From positions 128,001 to 192,000 of the IMG/VR virus record IMGVR_UViG_3300023218_000040: 64,000 bases of DNA. One strand, 5' to 3'. Source of the DNA: a virus. Lineage: Duplodnaviria > Caudoviricetes. A program made the translations under genes and the position numbers. The notes beneath the pieces are model-generated. The model saw only the letters and a program-made list of their open reading frames with translations, was not told the DNA's origin and did no database searches. Shown here in pieces: positions 21,491 to 58,677 of the stretch. How positions within the stretch are numbered: the stretch's first letter is position 1; each line of letters opens with the position of its first letter.

Positions 21491-21860
21491 ACAGTTGCTT
21501 GAGCGAACACTTGAAGCTCTACGGACGGCGGTTCGATTCCGCCCATCTCCACTAAACGATGGACATAGAGTAGCAGTGAGTGTACACCGGTACTCTATTT
21601 TCATTAGCGGCAGATAACGCACAACTGCCACATCTCTGGGGATGCCCTGGTTTTGACGTGGTGATGGATGGCTAGTAGTGAGACTGTCGGGTTAGACTAC
21701 CCCCGTAAAGGTTCACCCAAAGTATCTGCAAACGATGCTGTATATGACGAGGAGGTTCTTCCTCTCGCTGCATAAGCGGGAGCCAAGAATTCCTACTGCG
21801 GCTTAACAACCCGCAACGTCCGGGGTCTAACGAGCCTTGTTACCAAAATCCTAGAAAGGG
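21491..21860 (+). ncRNA. ssrA: Circularly permuted two-piece tmRNA
   Basis: Acceptor piece first (T-arm GGCGG-TTCGATT-CCGCC, CATCTCC-A ending 21551), intervening segment, then coding piece from GGGGATG (21638); stem GGGGAUG/CAUCUCC has G3.U70 and A73; tag ORF 21728-21775 ANDAVYDEEVLPLAA*; piece boundaries approximate. Confidence 0.92.
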
Positions 21861-52791: not shown

Positions 52792-52820
52792 TTGACTTCC
52801 AATTCAAGGAGTGATAAATA
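52792..52820 (+). promoter_or_regulatory. Promoter of the atypical tRNA(GUA)
   Basis: TTGACT-17 nt-TAAATA, 12 nt before the RNA 5' end. Confidence 0.65.
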
Positions 52821-52832
52821 TACAAAACACAT

Positions 52833-52921
52833 GGGTGTTTTTCCCCACTCTGGTCTGTAAAACCAGCGTCAAAAAACCGTGGGGTGGTAGACGGGAGGTT
52901 CGATTCCTTGAACACCCACCA
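52833..52921 (+). tRNA. Atypical D-armless tRNA-like RNA with GUA (Tyr) anticodon, 8/4 acceptor/T geometry
   Basis: GGGTGTTT/GAACACCC + A-CCA; anticodon arm CTGGT-CTGTAAA-ACCAG; variable stem CGTC/GACG; T loop TTCGATT; only 9 nt between acceptor and anticodon stems. Confidence 0.75.
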
Positions 52922-52924
52922 AAT

Positions 52925-52950
52925 AAAAAGGCTCCTTCGGGAGCCTTTTT
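52925..52950 (+). terminator. Rho-independent terminator
   Basis: AAAAAGGCTCC-TTCG-GGAGCCTTTTT. Confidence 0.9.
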
Positions 52951-53295: not shown

Positions 53296-53301
53296 ACACA
53301 C

Positions 53302-53936
53302 CATAGCAGAGAATACTATACAAAGAACCACGGATTCACAGGGATTAATAGGGTTGCGTTCGAATAATACACGCACCCGGCGACCTGGGGTAACGTCGCC
53401 ATTCAAAGACCCCCTTGACATTTGGGTGGCTCTACGGACCTACCCGGCGACCTGAGCACGTCGCCTGACGAATAAAAGGCTCCCCGAATTTTTGAATTCG
53501 GTGGCATCTTCGACTGAGACGGTACCGTGATACAGCACGGGGAAAGTGGAGAATAACTGTACGCCAACGTAGTCGAACCTCTGCCACCGACTTACAATCG
53601 GAGACGTACATCGTTTCCGGGCGACCTCGGCAAGTCGCCTGACGAAAAAACTGCCCTTTGAACACGGTCTTTTGTTTCTGGATTCGCCCATGGGATGACC
53701 GGGAAATCATAACCGGGTGTTAGCGAGCCTTGGGAAGAGACATCGAATGTAATGGAGTCCGACTAGCCATACAGTGTCGGTGACAGGCTGGAAAGACAGC
53801 GGTTTGAGACAAGTCGGGCCAAGAGCGGCCAACCTGACAGCCGGTGTGAGTCCGGGCAGCCCGACGACTTGAATTGCAGGGTGCCGCACCTGGGAACAGG
53901 TGGCCGCTGGAGGCTCGATCCCTCAACTCTGCTCCA
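53302..53936 (+). ncRNA. Candidate large structured ncRNA (~630 nt) ending in a tRNA-like domain with CCA
   Basis: No credible ORF; three GGCGAC/GTCGCC hairpins; nested stems 53498-53506/53582-53590 and 53509-53515/53571-53577; 3' stem GCAGGGT/ACTCTGC + T-CCA. Confidence 0.6.
53379..53646 (+). repeat. Three GGCGAC-N8-10-GTCGCC hairpin repeats (53379-53400, 53446-53465, 53620-53639); last two followed by TGACGAA
   Basis: Direct inspection. Confidence 0.85.
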
Positions 53937-53965
53937 ATCAACGCCAAATTCGGAGATAAGACCTA

Positions 53966-56870: not shown

Positions 56871-57068
56871 GTTGTGGGAGGCGACTCCCTTGCGGATGCC
56901 CACACCAAAGGTTGGTAGAAGCCTGTTCCTTTCGCCTGGAACTAATAGCACGCTCATCCTTAATTGGATGTGAAGACCGGGATCTGGTGGGTATTAACCT
57001 CACCAGTCATGGGTAGGCTCCACCGGGTTGTGGCTGACCGTCGCATCGAGTGTTGACCAACCGGTTTC
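56871..57068 (+). ncRNA. Candidate ~190-nt hairpin-rich small RNA
   Basis: Consecutive hairpins GGGAG/CTCCC, AGG.T/AGCCT, GTTCC/GGAAC, CATCC/GGATG, CTGGTG/CACCAG, ACCGG.TTG/CAACCGGT; no ORF; boundaries approximate. Confidence 0.4.
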
Positions 57069-57070
57069 TC

Positions 57071-57099
57071 TTGACTTTCGAGTCGAGTCGATATAAATA
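57071..57099 (+). promoter_or_regulatory. Composite sigma70/late promoter for the tRNA cluster
   Basis: TTGACT-17 nt-TAAATA within TATAAATA. Confidence 0.7.
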
Positions 57100-57112: not shown

Positions 57113-57191
57113 GCTCCGTTGGACTAGTCTGGTTTAGGTCGTCACCCTCTCAAGGTGAAGGTCGTGGGTTCGAATCCCACACGGAGTGCCA
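57113..57191 (+). tRNA. tRNA-Glu(CTC)
   Basis: TCACC-CTCTCAA-GGTGA, GGTTCGAATCC, encoded CCA. Confidence 0.93.
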
Positions 57192-57193
57192 AT

Positions 57194-57270
57194 GCACCGT
57201 TCGTCTAGTGGCCTAGGATGCCTGCCTTTCAAGCAGGAAGACGCCGGTTCGAATCCGGCACGGTGTACCA
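57194..57270 (+). tRNA. tRNA-Glu(TTC)
   Basis: CCTGC-CTTTCAA-GCAGG, GGTTCGAATCC, encoded CCA. Confidence 0.93.
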
Positions 57271-57278
57271 AATTCTCT

Positions 57279-57358
57279 GCCCCTGTATCCCCTCGGGTTT
57301 CTACCCCGATGAAAGGGTAATTGGACACATGCGGGTTCGAATCCTGTCTGGGGCTCCA
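57279..57358 (+). tRNA. Atypical D-armless tRNA-like RNA with UCU (Arg) anticodon
   Basis: GCCCCTG/CTGGGGC + T-CCA; TCGGG-TTTCTAC-CCCGA; 7 nt (TATCCCC) in place of the D arm; 21-nt variable region with GGG and AATTGGA; GCGGG-TTCGAAT-CCTGT. Confidence 0.75.
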
Positions 57359-57465: not shown

Positions 57466-58677
57466 ATGGCCACATTTTCAGTTCCAGTCGTCCGTATCGA
57501 CGCCATCGAGGACCATCCCAATGCCGACGCCTTGGAGATCGCCAAGGTGCGTGACTTCGATTGCATCACCCGCATCGGTGAGTACAAGGCTGGTGATATC
57601 GCTGTGTACATCCCCGAGGCTGCGGTCATGCCCGAGTGGCTGCTGAAGCGCATGGGTCTGTGGGATGAGGAGAAAGGCAAAGGCAAGCTGGCAGGCAAAG
57701 AAGGCAATCGTGTCAAGGCTGTCAAGCTGCGTGGCGTCGTGAGTCAGGGTCTGTTGTACCCGGTGTCTTGGGATGACCCAGATCTGTCTCAGGGAGAGAC
57801 TGTCGGTCTGCCTCGTGTCGATCTGAGCGACGGCGAAAGCTACCTGCTGTATGACTGGAACGACGTGGACATCGAGACCATCAAGTCTCGTTGCATCGAC
57901 GTGGACGTGGGAGACGTGCTTGGCATCACCAAGTGGGAGCCTCCCATTCCGACGCACATGGCTGGTGAGGTCTGCAACATCTTCGGCCACACTCTGAAGT
58001 TCGACATCGAGAACATCCAGAAGCACAACGAGGTTCTGGTTTCGGGCGAGGAGGTCGTGATCACCGAGAAGCTTCACGGCACCTGGACGTGCTTTGGCTT
58101 CGATCCGGACCTGGATCACGAGGAACTTCTTCACGGTGGCACCATCATCAACTCTAAGGGTCTGAGCGAGCAGGGTTTGGCATTCAAGTGGAACGACGCC
58201 AATGACAAGAACCTGTACGTTCGGATGTTCAAGCAGTACATGCTGGATACTGGTAGATGGAACAAGGTGATGGACATGGCCGTTCGTCGTGGCGAGCCCG
58301 TGTTCATCCTGGGTGAGACCTTCGGTCCTGGTGTACAAGATCTGCACTACGGTCTGAAGGAGAAGAGTTTTCTGGTGTTCGGCATCTACGTCGGCAAGCC
58401 GGGTCAGGGTCAATACCTCGATCACGTGGAGTTCAAGCAGACGTGCTCCTGGCTAGAGGTTTCCACGGTACCGGTCCTGTACCATGGTCCGTTCAGCATG
58501 GATACTGCCAAGAGCTTTCGTGACGGAAAGGATACCATCACCGGAGCCAACATTCGGGAGGGTATCGTGATTACTCCGGTTAAAGAACGAAACGATTTCG
58601 TGCTGGGTCGGGTGACTCTCAAGATGATCAGCCCGGACTACCTGCTGCGGAAGGGCAATGCCACGGAATTCAACTGA
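57466..58677 (+). CDS. RNA ligase, DRB0094 family (N-terminal OB-fold plus nucleotidyltransferase)
   Basis: I..I..HPNAD.LE.A, AVYIPE, R.KA.KLRG..SQG, K.EP, EKLHGT, GE..G..VQ, REG.V, K.IS..YL. Confidence 0.88.
   Translation: MATFSVPVVRIDAIEDHPNADALEIAKVRDFDCITRIGEYKAGDIAVYIPEAAVMPEWLLKRMGLWDEEKGKGKLAGKEGNRVKAVKLRGVVSQGLLYPVSWDDPDLSQGETVGLPRVDLSDGESYLLYDWNDVDIETIKSRCIDVDVGDVLGITKWEPPIPTHMAGEVCNIFGHTLKFDIENIQKHNEVLVSGEEVVITEKLHGTWTCFGFDPDLDHEELLHGGTIINSKGLSEQGLAFKWNDANDKNLYVRMFKQYMLDTGRWNKVMDMAVRRGEPVFILGETFGPGVQDLHYGLKEKSFLVFGIYVGKPGQGQYLDHVEFKQTCSWLEVSTVPVLYHGPFSMDTAKSFRDGKDTITGANIREGIVITPVKERNDFVLGRVTLKMISPDYLLRKGNATEFN

What the first reader, a model, noticed from the sequence alone, without database searches (positions are those of the whole stretch)
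57279..57358. D-armless tRNA(UCU) sharing the rearranged architecture of the GUA RNA
It is co-transcribed with two normal tRNA-Glu genes. Only TATCCCC separates the acceptor and anticodon stems. The 21-nt variable region reads TG-AAA-GGG-TAATTGGA-CA-CA-T: A-run, a G-run able to pair with the CCC, then a D-loop-like AATTGGA. This order (stem, A-run, G-run, TGG, stem) matches 52833-52921 despite different sequence and anticodon. Two independent instances argue for a real class of D-loop-relocated phage tRNAs rather than decay (inference).
Basis: partly seen in the sequence, partly recalled or inferred. Interest (0 to 1): 0.82.

Follow-up and report, generated by a model that had tools for sequence, protein, structure and literature searches.

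The report
Rewired non-cloverleaf phage arginine tRNA
This 80-base gene of a giant phage is very probably a working arginine tRNA whose D arm is threaded in a different order (half before, half after the anticodon arm); it belongs to a large phage family that gene finders miss and that I found in no paper, and bacterial-type tRNAs are said always to be cloverleaves.

Summary
Window 57279-57358 has a normal acceptor stem, anticodon arm (UCU), T arm and encoded CCA, but no D hairpin and a 21-nt variable region.

It is not decay. I collected 91 distinct 77-nt homologues from viral contigs. The CCC after U8-A9-U pairs with the GGG before UAAUUGGA. This 3-bp helix is Watson-Crick in 91 of 91 sequences, and all three pairs change on both sides. 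A family model built without the window scores it 89 bits; ordinary tRNAs of the genome reach at most 25.

The segment after the G strand is the D loop. It nearly matches the D loop of the genome's canonical tRNA-Arg(CCU). In an unbiased set, its position-20 base follows the anticodon class: A in 99 of 99 Arg members, U in 61 of 63 Ile or CAU members.

Rewired and canonical tRNA-Arg genes in one locus rarely share an anticodon (2 of 37; 11 expected). The GUA RNA at 52833-52921 uses the same strand swap, with a covarying 6-bp helix.

Cultured Streptomyces, Microbacterium and Pseudomonas phages carry unannotated or misnamed members. I found no paper describing the fold. This scan has reported the family before on other DNA. 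Expression and charging remain untested.

The parts
57071..57099 (+). Promoter-like TTGACT-N17-TAAATA ahead of the tRNA-Glu/Glu/Arg(UCU) unit. The same two hexamers and spacing stand at 52792-52820 ahead of the GUA RNA.
   Evidence: Read from the sequence. Function is inferred.
57113..57270 (+). Two canonical tRNA-Glu genes (CUC, UUC), each with encoded CCA, directly upstream. Probably in the same transcript.
   Evidence: ARAGORN; Rfam 62.0 and 62.3 bits.
57279..57285 (+). Acceptor stem, 5' strand (pairs with 57348-57354; U6.U67 mismatch).
   Evidence: This helix is 98% paired and all 7 pairs covary in 91 homologues.
57286..57292 (+). U8, A9, U (position 22 equivalent), CCC 57289-57291 (D-stem strand, positions 23-25 equivalent) and the invariant C 57292 (26 equivalent).
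   Evidence: CCC pairs with GGG 57315-57317. Columns 11-13 with 37-39 are 100% Watson-Crick in 91 sequences, and all three pairs change on both sides. U8, A9 and C14 are invariant although no search pattern fixed them.
57293..57309 (+). Anticodon arm. Stem UCGGG/CCCGA, loop UUUCUAC with U33, anticodon UCU (57300-57302) and A37.
   Evidence: Four stem pairs covary. The 27:43 position is unpaired in 71 of 91 homologues but is U-A here.
57310..57314 (+). UGAAA linker between the anticodon stem and the G strand. G33 of the alignment is invariant without having been fixed by a pattern.
   Evidence: Its role is unknown. In a second subfamily the same block lies after the D loop.
57315..57327 (+). 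GGG (D-stem strand, positions 10-12 equivalent), U (13 equivalent), then D loop AAUUGGACA. Equivalents: A14 57319, A15 57320, G18 and G19 57323-57324, A20 57325.
   Evidence: Covariation of GGG with CCC. The loop differs by one base from the D loop of the canonical tRNA-Arg(CCU) at G000:196221-196295. The base after GG is A in 99 of 99 Arg members and U in 61 of 63 Ile or CAU members.
57328..57330 (+). CAU connector to the T stem. The U at 57330 is placed like U48 and could pair with A15.
   Evidence: C50 is invariant without being fixed by a pattern. The 15-48 pairing is inference.
57331..57347 (+). T arm GCGGG-UUCGAAU-CCUGU.
   Evidence: 98.5% paired in the family.
57348..57358 (+). Acceptor 3' strand, discriminator U 57355 and encoded CCA 57356-57358.
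52833..52921 (+). Sister gene: rewired tRNA-Tyr(GUA). CCCCAC 52843-52848 pairs with GUGGGG 52879-52884 around the anticodon arm. UGG follows. CGUC 52867-52870 pairs with GACG 52890-52893, which makes a pseudoknot. A73 and CCA are present. It has its own promoter-like site and a terminator hairpin at 52925-52950.
   Evidence: The 6-bp helix is perfect in 75 of 79 family members with 33 different 6-mers, against a mean of 14.6 in a shuffled-partner control.

Best explanation
The element is a gene for an elongator tRNA-Arg(UCU) of a widespread phage family with a re-threaded core.

Layout. In a normal tRNA the chain runs U8-A9, D-stem strand 10-13, D loop, D-stem strand 22-25, 26, anticodon arm, variable loop, T arm. 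Here it runs U8-A9, the 22-25-type strand (U-CCC), C26, anticodon arm, a UGAAA linker, the 10-13-type strand (GGG-U), the D loop (AAUUGGACA), CAU, T arm. The D stem therefore forms by long-range pairing around the anticodon arm. The D loop sits after the anticodon arm, where its GG can still reach the T loop.

Stack length. Four to five anticodon-stem pairs, U27/N43, C26, three D pairs and U.U give about 10 layers, as in a cloverleaf tRNA. An L shape with the usual tertiary contacts is therefore plausible.

Inferred life cycle. It is transcribed with the two tRNA-Glu genes and cut out by RNase P and 3' trimming. The host ArgRS charges it through A20, C35 and U36. It then reads AGA (and probably AGG) in phage mRNAs, next to the phage's canonical tRNA-Arg(CCU).

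Shown here: the fold, family membership, the identity signature, and the complementarity of anticodons. Inferred: expression, processing, charging, use on the ribosome, and the reason for the rewiring.
For: Fold.
- Helix 57289-57291 x 57315-57317 is 100% Watson-Crick in 91 distinct homologues. All 3 pairs change on both sides and there is no G-U.
- RNAalifold predicts the same structure de novo.
- All of the highest mutual-information column pairs but one (two anticodon positions) are the proposed pairs.
- In a second, unbiased set 162 of 162 members keep 3 of 3 pairs.

Membership.
- The leave-one-out model scores the window element 89.1 bits, E 1.8e-24. Canonical tRNAs score 25 bits or less.

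Homology to tRNA-Arg.
- The D loop, acceptor, anticodon loop and T arm resemble the genome's canonical tRNA-Arg(CCU).

Identity.
- The anticodons in the family are the six Arg anticodons, plus Ile (UAU, GAU) and CAU.
- The base after G18-G19 is A in 99 of 99 Arg members and U in 61 of 63 Ile or CAU members. All 63 of the latter have A73 (Fisher P 8e-43).
- This matches the bacterial identity sets (Arg: A20, C35, U/G36; Ile: U20, A73) in Table 1 of PMC9976931.

Use as a decoder.
- In 37 dereplicated loci that hold both a rewired and a canonical tRNA-Arg, only 2 share an anticodon. Permutation expects 11.2 (P about 1e-4).
- In this genome the canonical gene is CCU and the rewired one is UCU.
- Streptomyces phage Mildred21 has about 43 annotated tRNAs, but its only ACG and UCG genes are rewired.
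- AGA makes up 19% of the Arg codons of this phage.

Distribution.
Against: - There is no evidence of expression, end maturation, modification or aminoacylation.
- Thermodynamic folding of the single sequence is no better than shuffles (z = -0.21).
- The acceptor stem has a U6.U67 mismatch, seen in 6 of 91 members. The discriminator is U, seen in 9 of 91; most members have G or A.
- In the flanks of 73 family members the Arg codon usage does not follow the anticodon carried. UCU carriers do not use AGA more than ACG carriers do. Simple codon compensation is therefore not supported.
- A 3-bp D stem with a 5-nt bulged linker is untested on ArgRS, EF-Tu and the ribosome.
- The family sequences are related to each other, so the counts are not independent events.
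Confidence: 0.8

Rival explanations
1. It is a tRNA-like decoy or regulator and not a decoder. It folds like tRNA-Arg and may bind ArgRS or a host tRNA-targeting nuclease or toxin, titrating it away, but it does not deliver arginine on the ribosome.
For: No charging or decoding data exist. Phage tRNAs are known to neutralise tRNA-cleaving defences: PARIS (PMC11464382) and Retron-Eco7 (PMC12673091). An RNA ligase gene lies directly downstream at 57466-58677, which hints at tRNA damage and repair in this phage. Codon usage does not follow the anticodon carried.
Against: A decoy would not need to avoid the anticodons of the neighbouring canonical tRNA-Arg genes, yet it does (2 of 37 against 11.2 expected). 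It would not be the only ACG or UCG gene in a near-complete phage tRNA set. The family keeps U33, R37, a 7-nt loop, the synthetase identity bases and in many members CCA. All of these are expected of a decoder. Being a decoy and being a decoder are also not mutually exclusive.
Confidence: 0.12
2. The gene is a precursor that is cut and re-ligated at the RNA level into an ordinary cloverleaf, as happens with permuted or split tRNA genes. The adjacent RNA ligase might do the joining.
For: An RNA ligase gene (PF09414 with a PHA02142 OB-fold domain) lies 108 nt downstream. Covariation proves pairing, not chain connectivity in the mature RNA.
Against: Restoring the cloverleaf order would need the GGG-plus-D-loop block to be moved to between A9 and the CCC strand. 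That takes at least three cuts and three ligations. No bulge-helix-bulge or intron-like motif is present. The acceptor strands are already in normal order. The invariant UGAAA and CAU connectors would have no reason to be conserved if they were discarded. Members occur in 45-50-kb phages; I did not check whether those phages encode an RNA ligase.
Confidence: 0.03
3. It is a decaying tRNA-Arg pseudogene that lost its D arm and gained junk in the variable region.
For: It falls just below Rfam's gathering score (28.2 against 29) and ARAGORN misses it. The acceptor stem has one mismatch.
Against: More than 160 distinct homologues share the same 77-nt layout. Compensatory changes occur in four helices, the connectors are invariant and the identity bases are kept. 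The family model gives 89 bits.
Confidence: 0.01

Closest known systems
Canonical bacterial and phage tRNA-Arg (class I cloverleaf, Rfam RF00005), for example the tRNA-Arg(CCU) of this same genome at G000:196221-196295 and E. coli tRNA-Arg
   Same: 7-bp acceptor, 5-bp T stem with a UUCGAAU-type loop, and a 7-nt anticodon loop with U33 and A37. The 9-nt D loop is of the type A-R-Y-U-G-G-A-Y-A, with G18, G19 and the ArgRS determinant A20, as well as U8 and A9. Length is about 77 nt.
   Different: The order of segments differs. The 3'-type D-stem strand comes before the anticodon arm; the 5'-type strand and the D loop come after it. There is no D hairpin. The D stem has 3 Watson-Crick pairs. Conserved UGAAA and CAU connectors replace the variable loop. 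Rfam scores it below threshold and ARAGORN misses it.
D-armless mitochondrial tRNAs (for example nematode and mammalian mt-tRNA-Ser; review PMC7609411)
   Same: There is no D hairpin between the acceptor and anticodon stems, only a short connector.
   Different: In the mitochondrial cases the D arm is truly lost, the elbow contacts are reduced and the molecule is flexible. Here the D stem and a full D loop with GG are retained, just re-threaded. The T loop is canonical and the setting is bacterial-type translation.
Circularly permuted and split tRNA genes (Cyanidioschyzon merolae, some archaea; from my own knowledge)
   Same: The gene order of tRNA segments departs from the cloverleaf order.
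   Different: Those genes are permuted as wholes (3' half before 5' half) and processing restores a normal cloverleaf. Here only the D and anticodon core is permuted, the termini are normal, and nothing suggests restoration.
Phage tRNA-Tyr with a remodelled variable loop that neutralises Retron-Eco7 (phage SP15, PMC12673091), and phage tRNAs with anticodon-loop changes that evade nucleases (PMC10264068)
   Same: These are phage tRNAs whose bodies differ from the host's in ways that matter for defence and counter-defence.
   Different: They remain cloverleaves. No defence system is known to be evaded by the rewired Arg design.
The rewired, pseudoknotted phage tRNA-Tyr(GUA) family
   Same: The same strand swap: the 3'-type D strand before the anticodon arm, its partner and a GG motif after it. 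Found mostly in viral contigs and missed by ARAGORN here.
   Different: The helix has 6 bp, not 3. There is an extra covarying 3-4-bp variable stem that makes a pseudoknot. The GG loop is much shorter. It carries Tyr identity (A73, GUA). The connectors show no sequence similarity, so it probably arose independently.

Membership tests
Rewired phage tRNA-Arg/Ile family (defined here by alignment A1/A2 and model R1) | Scores with a covariance model built from other members | tested here: met
   89.1 bits, E 1.8e-24, over all 77 model positions, with the window left out of the model. Canonical tRNAs score 25 bits or less.
Rewired phage tRNA-Arg/Ile family (defined here by alignment A1/A2 and model R1) | A 3-nt strand after U8-A9-N is complementary to the 3-nt strand just before UAAYUGGN, enclosing the anticodon arm | tested here: met
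   CCC 57289-57291 with GGG 57315-57317. The helix is Watson-Crick in 91 of 91 and paired at all three positions in 162 of 162 family members.
Rewired phage tRNA-Arg/Ile family (defined here by alignment A1/A2 and model R1) | Invariant connectors: C-U before the anticodon stem, GAAA before the G strand, CAU before the T stem | tested here: met
   All are present at 57292-57293, 57311-57314 and 57328-57330.
Canonical tRNA (Rfam RF00005 / cloverleaf) | Acceptor stem, anticodon arm with a 7-nt loop, T arm with a T-loop motif | tested here: met
   The Rfam alignment covers model positions 1-71 with these three arms.
Canonical tRNA (Rfam RF00005 / cloverleaf) | D hairpin between positions 9 and 26 | tested here: not met
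   Only 7 nt lie between the acceptor and anticodon stems. Rfam deletes 15 model positions there.
Canonical tRNA (Rfam RF00005 / cloverleaf) | Reaches Rfam's gathering score, or is called by ARAGORN | tested here: not met
   28.2 bits against 29. ARAGORN gives no call here, nor on any of 91 family members. tRNAscan-SE was not available.
Bacterial arginine identity set (A20, C35, U/G36, position 73; PMC9976931 Table 1) | C35 and U36 in the anticodon | tested here: met
   Anticodon UCU at 57300-57302.
Bacterial arginine identity set (A20, C35, U/G36, position 73; PMC9976931 Table 1) | A20 in the D loop | tested here: met
   A 57325 follows the GG. Across the family this base is A with Arg anticodons (99 of 99) and U with Ile or CAU anticodons (61 of 63). 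Whether it sits in the variable pocket in 3D could not be tested.
Bacterial arginine identity set (A20, C35, U/G36, position 73; PMC9976931 Table 1) | Discriminator A/G73 (U73 is also listed) | tested here: inconclusive
   U at 57355. The family has G 49, A 33 and U 9. The table lists U73 as well.
Bacterial arginine identity set (A20, C35, U/G36, position 73; PMC9976931 Table 1) | Actual aminoacylation by ArgRS | not testable with these tools
   Needs an in vitro charging assay or acid-gel northern blots.
D-armless mitochondrial-type tRNA | Loss of the D stem and the D-loop GG, with weakened elbow contacts | tested here: not met
   The D stem (covarying) and a full D loop with GG are present after the anticodon arm, and the T loop is canonical.
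Permuted tRNA gene restored by processing | 3' half encoded before the 5' half, with processing motifs at the junctions | tested here: not met
   The acceptor 5' and 3' strands and the CCA are in normal order. No junction motif was seen.
YrlA/Y-RNA type tRNA mimic | Sealed or absent aminoacyl end, no decoding anticodon loop, Ro60 partner | tested here: not met
   The end is a free acceptor with CCA, and the anticodon loop is canonical. No Ro-like gene appeared among the 8 neighbouring ORFs scanned; the rest of the genome was not searched for Ro.

The most novel reading that the evidence does not exclude
Phages have evolved, at least twice (Arg/Ile design and Tyr design, both present in this one genome), fully functional tRNAs that are not cloverleaves. 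The core is topologically re-threaded so that synthetase, EF-Tu and ribosome still accept the molecule. Host enzymes that read or cut the D-arm or variable-region backbone (tRNA-targeting defence nucleases, toxins or decay pathways) no longer do. On this reading they are 'stealth' tRNAs that form a structural counter-defence.
Probability: 0.3. Interest if true: 0.95.

Novelty: new variant of a known kind. Interest (0 to 1): 0.85.

Why it matters
Textbooks and recent papers state that all known bacterial tRNAs are cloverleaves (PMC11551756). The 2020 review of non-canonical tRNAs lists no phage case and no rewired D arm.

A large natural family of tRNAs with a permuted core would have four consequences.
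- It would show that the bacterial translation apparatus tolerates a different chain topology.
- It would give synthetic biology a ready-made scaffold that may be orthogonal or nuclease-resistant.
- It would expose a systematic blind spot in annotation: ARAGORN misses 91 of 91, and one member in Streptomyces phage Mildred21 is deposited as tRNA-Phe(gaa). Phage tRNA and codon analyses are therefore distorted.
- It would raise a testable question about why phages, and almost only phages, re-thread tRNA-Arg, tRNA-Ile and tRNA-Tyr.

Cultured Streptomyces, Microbacterium and Pseudomonas phages carry members, so the question can be addressed directly at the bench.

Tried and rejected
- Related phages by synteny. 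A search for relatives of the downstream RNA ligase in viral contigs found none. A blastn search of the region against cultured phages hit only the tRNA-Glu genes.
- Single-sequence thermodynamic folding gave no signal. I did not use it.
- Codon compensation. Arg codon usage in the flanks of 73 family members does not follow the anticodon carried. I therefore do not claim codon compensation.
- Literature. Eight searches found no description of this fold. A 2023 survey of viral structured RNAs mentions a candidate motif that sometimes overlaps tRNA-Arg predictions (PMC10690425). No supplement is held, so I could not tell whether it is this family.
- Readings rejected: a pseudogene (rejected by covariation); a mitochondrial-like D-armless tRNA (the D loop is retained); a whole-gene permuted tRNA (the termini are in normal order); a class II tRNA with a long variable arm (the 21-nt region has no hairpin of its own, and its G strand pairs upstream).
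- Left open. C14-G33 and G33-C50 could be extra pairs, but all three bases are invariant, so neither pairing can be tested by covariation.

Full report
SETTING

The window is bases 128001-192000 of a 204-kb IMG/VR virus record. The record is linear, 46.6% G+C, and estimated to be 55% complete. ARAGORN finds 12 canonical tRNA genes and a permuted tmRNA in it. The finding lies in a tRNA-rich stretch. A ClpP-like gene and a DUF6765 gene lie upstream on the other strand. An RNA ligase gene (PF09414 plus a PHA02142 OB-fold domain) begins 108 nt downstream.

THE OBSERVATION

- A 7-position acceptor stem with one U.U mismatch.
- Seven nucleotides, UAUCCCC.
- A regular anticodon arm with loop UUUCUAC (anticodon UCU).
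- A 21-nt stretch UGAAA-GGG-UAAUUGGACACAU.
- A regular T arm, discriminator U and an encoded CCA.

The gene follows two ordinary tRNA-Glu genes with spacers of 2 and 8 nt. A TTGACT-N17-TAAATA promoter-like site precedes all three at 57071-57099. The same hexamers and spacing precede the GUA RNA at 52792-52820. Co-transcription is therefore likely, but it has not been shown.

Rfam's tRNA model aligns the element over its whole length at 28.2 bits, just under the gathering score of 29. It deletes the D arm and inserts 18 nt in the variable region. ARAGORN does not call the element. Folding the single sequence gives nothing better than shuffled controls.

HOMOLOGUES

Degenerate pattern scans of 2.9 million viral contigs found many relatives.
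- A first pattern fixed CCCC, the UCU loop and the T loop. It gave five clear homologues with different acceptor, anticodon and T stems.
- A second pattern fixed only the GGG-UAA..GGA block and the T loop. It showed that nearly all members carry arginine anticodons.
- A third pattern left the GGG free. It returned 109 stretches holding 94 distinct family sequences, 91 of them exactly 77 nt long.

In these 91, the triplet after U8-A9-U is always the exact reverse complement of the triplet before UAAYUGGA. About 19 different triplet pairs occur (CCC/GGG, ACC/GGU, CUC/GAG, GCC/GGC, CGG/CCG, AGA/UCU and others).

A formal count on the alignment (A1) gave the following.
- This helix is 100% paired. 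All three pairs change on both sides and there is no G-U pair.
- The acceptor stem is 98% paired and the T stem 98.5%.
- Four anticodon-stem pairs also covary.
- The 27:43 position is usually U.U.
- Partner-shuffle and slide controls score far lower.

RNAalifold predicts the same structure without being told it. All of the highest mutual-information column pairs but one, which joins two anticodon positions, are these pairs.

A covariance model built from the 90 other sequences scores the window element at 89.1 bits (E 1.8e-24). The canonical tRNAs of the genome reach at most 25 bits. Decay is excluded.

WHAT THE FOLD IS

I compared the element with the canonical tRNA-Arg(CCU) of the same genome (G000:196221-196295). 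The stretch AAUUGGACA after the G strand is a D loop: the canonical gene has AACUGGACA between its D-stem strands.

The chain order here is therefore:
1. U8-A9.
2. U plus CCC (22-25 type strand).
3. C (26).
4. The anticodon arm.
5. The UGAAA linker.
6. GGG plus U (10-13 type strand).
7. The D loop (14-21).
8. CAU, then the T arm.

Topologically the D and anticodon core is circularly permuted, while the termini are normal. The coaxial stack keeps about ten layers, as in a cloverleaf tRNA. Still present are U8, A14, A15 with a U placed like U48, G18-G19 and a canonical T loop. An L shape with the usual contacts is thus plausible. That step is inference; I had no RNA 3D tool.

Some bases are invariant for reasons I cannot explain and cannot test by covariation: C14, U15, G33 and C50 of the alignment. 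A second subfamily places the UGAAA block after the D loop, not before the G strand.

IS IT A WORKING tRNA?

Three independent lines say yes.

First, identity. A scan that left the three bases at G18-G19-N20 free gave 162 well-formed members, all with the 3-bp helix. Of these, 99 have Arg anticodons (ACG, UCU, CCU, UCG, GCG, CCG). All 99 have A after GG; in three of them the GGA is shifted by one position. The other 63 have UAU, GAU or CAU. Of those, 61 have U after GG, and all 63 have discriminator A (Fisher P 8e-43). That is the bacterial rule: A20, C35 and U/G36 for ArgRS, and U20 and A73 among the IleRS determinants (Table 1 of PMC9976931). The relocated loop is evidently read as a D loop by synthetases. 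The window element has A20 (57325), C35 and U36. Its U73 is the minority state in the family.

Second, complementarity. Of 105 loci with a rewired Arg gene, 87 also hold canonical tRNA genes. In 37 dereplicated loci that also hold a canonical tRNA-Arg, only 2 share the anticodon with the rewired gene. Label permutation expects 11.2 (P about 1e-4). This genome fits the pattern, with a canonical CCU and a rewired UCU.

Third, sole isoacceptors. Streptomyces phage Mildred21 has about 43 annotated tRNAs covering all twenty amino acids, yet its only ACG and UCG genes are rewired. One is unannotated. The other is deposited as tRNA-Phe(gaa), which is the right-hand part of the loop CUUCGAA read out of register.

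AGA is 19% and AGG 10% of the Arg codons of this phage.

Against a simple codon-compensation story, Arg codon usage in the flanks of 73 members does not follow the anticodon carried.

Nothing here shows expression, processing, modification or charging.

THE GUA SISTER

The RNA at 52833-52921 has CCCCAC before its anticodon arm and GUGGGG followed by UGG after it. It also has CGUC and GACG flanking that segment.

A scan that fixed neither strand gave 79 distinct relatives with the same 10-nt connector.
- 75 have a perfect 6-bp complement, with 33 different 6-mers. A shuffled-partner control gives a mean of 14.6 and a maximum of 24.
- YGG follows in 70 of the 79.
- The 3-4-bp outer stem covaries as well.

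The Tyr design is therefore a pseudoknot. An unannotated member sits in cultured Pseudomonas phage Rembedalsseter.

The connectors are unrelated in sequence, so the two designs probably arose separately.

DISTRIBUTION AND PRIOR KNOWLEDGE

The Arg/Ile pattern occurs in more than 119 viral-contig stretches. In one genome for each of 185,579 prokaryote species it occurs in only 8 contigs, and all 8 are MAG contigs. Cultured carriers include Streptomyces BE-type phages, Microbacterium phages (A3Wally, Zooman), a Rhizobium phage and Pseudomonas PA11-like phages. Almost all of these genes are unannotated. ARAGORN in standard mode misses 91 of 91.

I found no description of the fold in eight full-text searches. 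[quoted passage not shown] The 2020 review of non-canonical tRNAs has no phage case.

This scan itself has reported the rewired Arg family and the Tyr family many times on other DNA. My own analysis reached the Arg family before I read those notes, and it agrees with them.

WHY REWIRE?

This is unknown. Phage tRNAs are known to escape or neutralise tRNA-cleaving defences through anticodon-loop changes (PMC10264068) or through a remodelled variable loop in tRNA-Tyr (PMC12673091). The RNA ligase next door suggests that tRNA damage matters to this phage. Evasion of a host factor that reads the D-arm or variable-region backbone is my favoured speculation (about 0.3), but I know of no cognate defence against tRNA-Arg or tRNA-Ile bodies.

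VERDICT

- The element is a member of a large family of rewired tRNA-Arg/Ile genes, essentially confined to phages.
- It is very probably functional (0.8).
- In the literature I could search it is a new structural variant of tRNA.

Noticed in passing
L223:868-943 (NC_042008.1 91367-91442, Streptomyces phage Mildred21): This family member has the loop CUUCGAA (anticodon UCG, Arg) but is deposited as tRNA-Phe(gaa), so the anticodon was read out of register. Two further members in the same phage are unannotated: ACG at about 94857-94933 and GAU at about 73703-73779.
   Followed up: yes
Loci L359-L445: The same 77-nt rewired scaffold carries Ile anticodons (UAU 40, GAU 16) and CAU (7). These members have U, not A, after G18-G19, and all have A73. 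The CAU members could be tRNA-Ile2 (lysidine) or Met; I did not resolve this.
   Followed up: partly
L089, L099, L114, L115, L123, L134; Pseudomonas PA11-like phages: A second Arg(UCU) subfamily of 80-81 nt has a 6-bp anticodon stem, only a 2-nt linker before GGG, and the UGAAAA block moved to after the D loop. The same parts are connected in yet another order.
   Followed up: partly
window 52833-52921 and family: In the rewired Tyr family the first T-stem pair is usually a mismatch, while the base after the 7-bp acceptor strand can pair with the base before the 3' acceptor strand. This hints at an 8/4 acceptor/T geometry like tRNA-Sec. Rfam's tRNA-Sec model is the best Rfam hit for the window copy (24.8 bits).
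   Followed up: no
L002:519-600 (PQ464593.1 44629-44710, Pseudomonas phage Rembedalsseter): An unannotated rewired tRNA-Tyr(GUA) lies just upstream of the small terminase gene in a cultured 45-kb phage.
   Followed up: partly
window 53300-53940: About 640 nt without a credible ORF follow a TTGACA-N17-TATAGT promoter. The stretch has repeated GC-rich hairpins and a tRNA-like 3' end, and it has no Rfam match. The scan has already reported it as a large structured phage RNA.
   Followed up: no
window 56871-57064: A non-coding, structured-looking leader follows a TTGACA-N17-TAAGAT promoter upstream of the tRNA-Glu/Glu/Arg unit. It was noted earlier by the scan and remains unassigned.
   Followed up: no
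window 21491-21775: A circularly permuted (two-piece) tmRNA, Rfam RF04321 at 95.4 bits. This is unusual in a phage and a possible clue to the host.
   Followed up: no
L100:7364-7441, L103 and L131: One scaffold member has a UAC (Val) anticodon. Two contigs hold a different odd tRNA-like RNA that contains the GGGUAACGGGA block but has no obvious anticodon arm.
   Followed up: no
window 57466-58677: An RNA ligase gene with an N-terminal PHA02142 OB-fold domain lies directly downstream of the tRNA unit. This is consistent with tRNA repair.
   Followed up: partly
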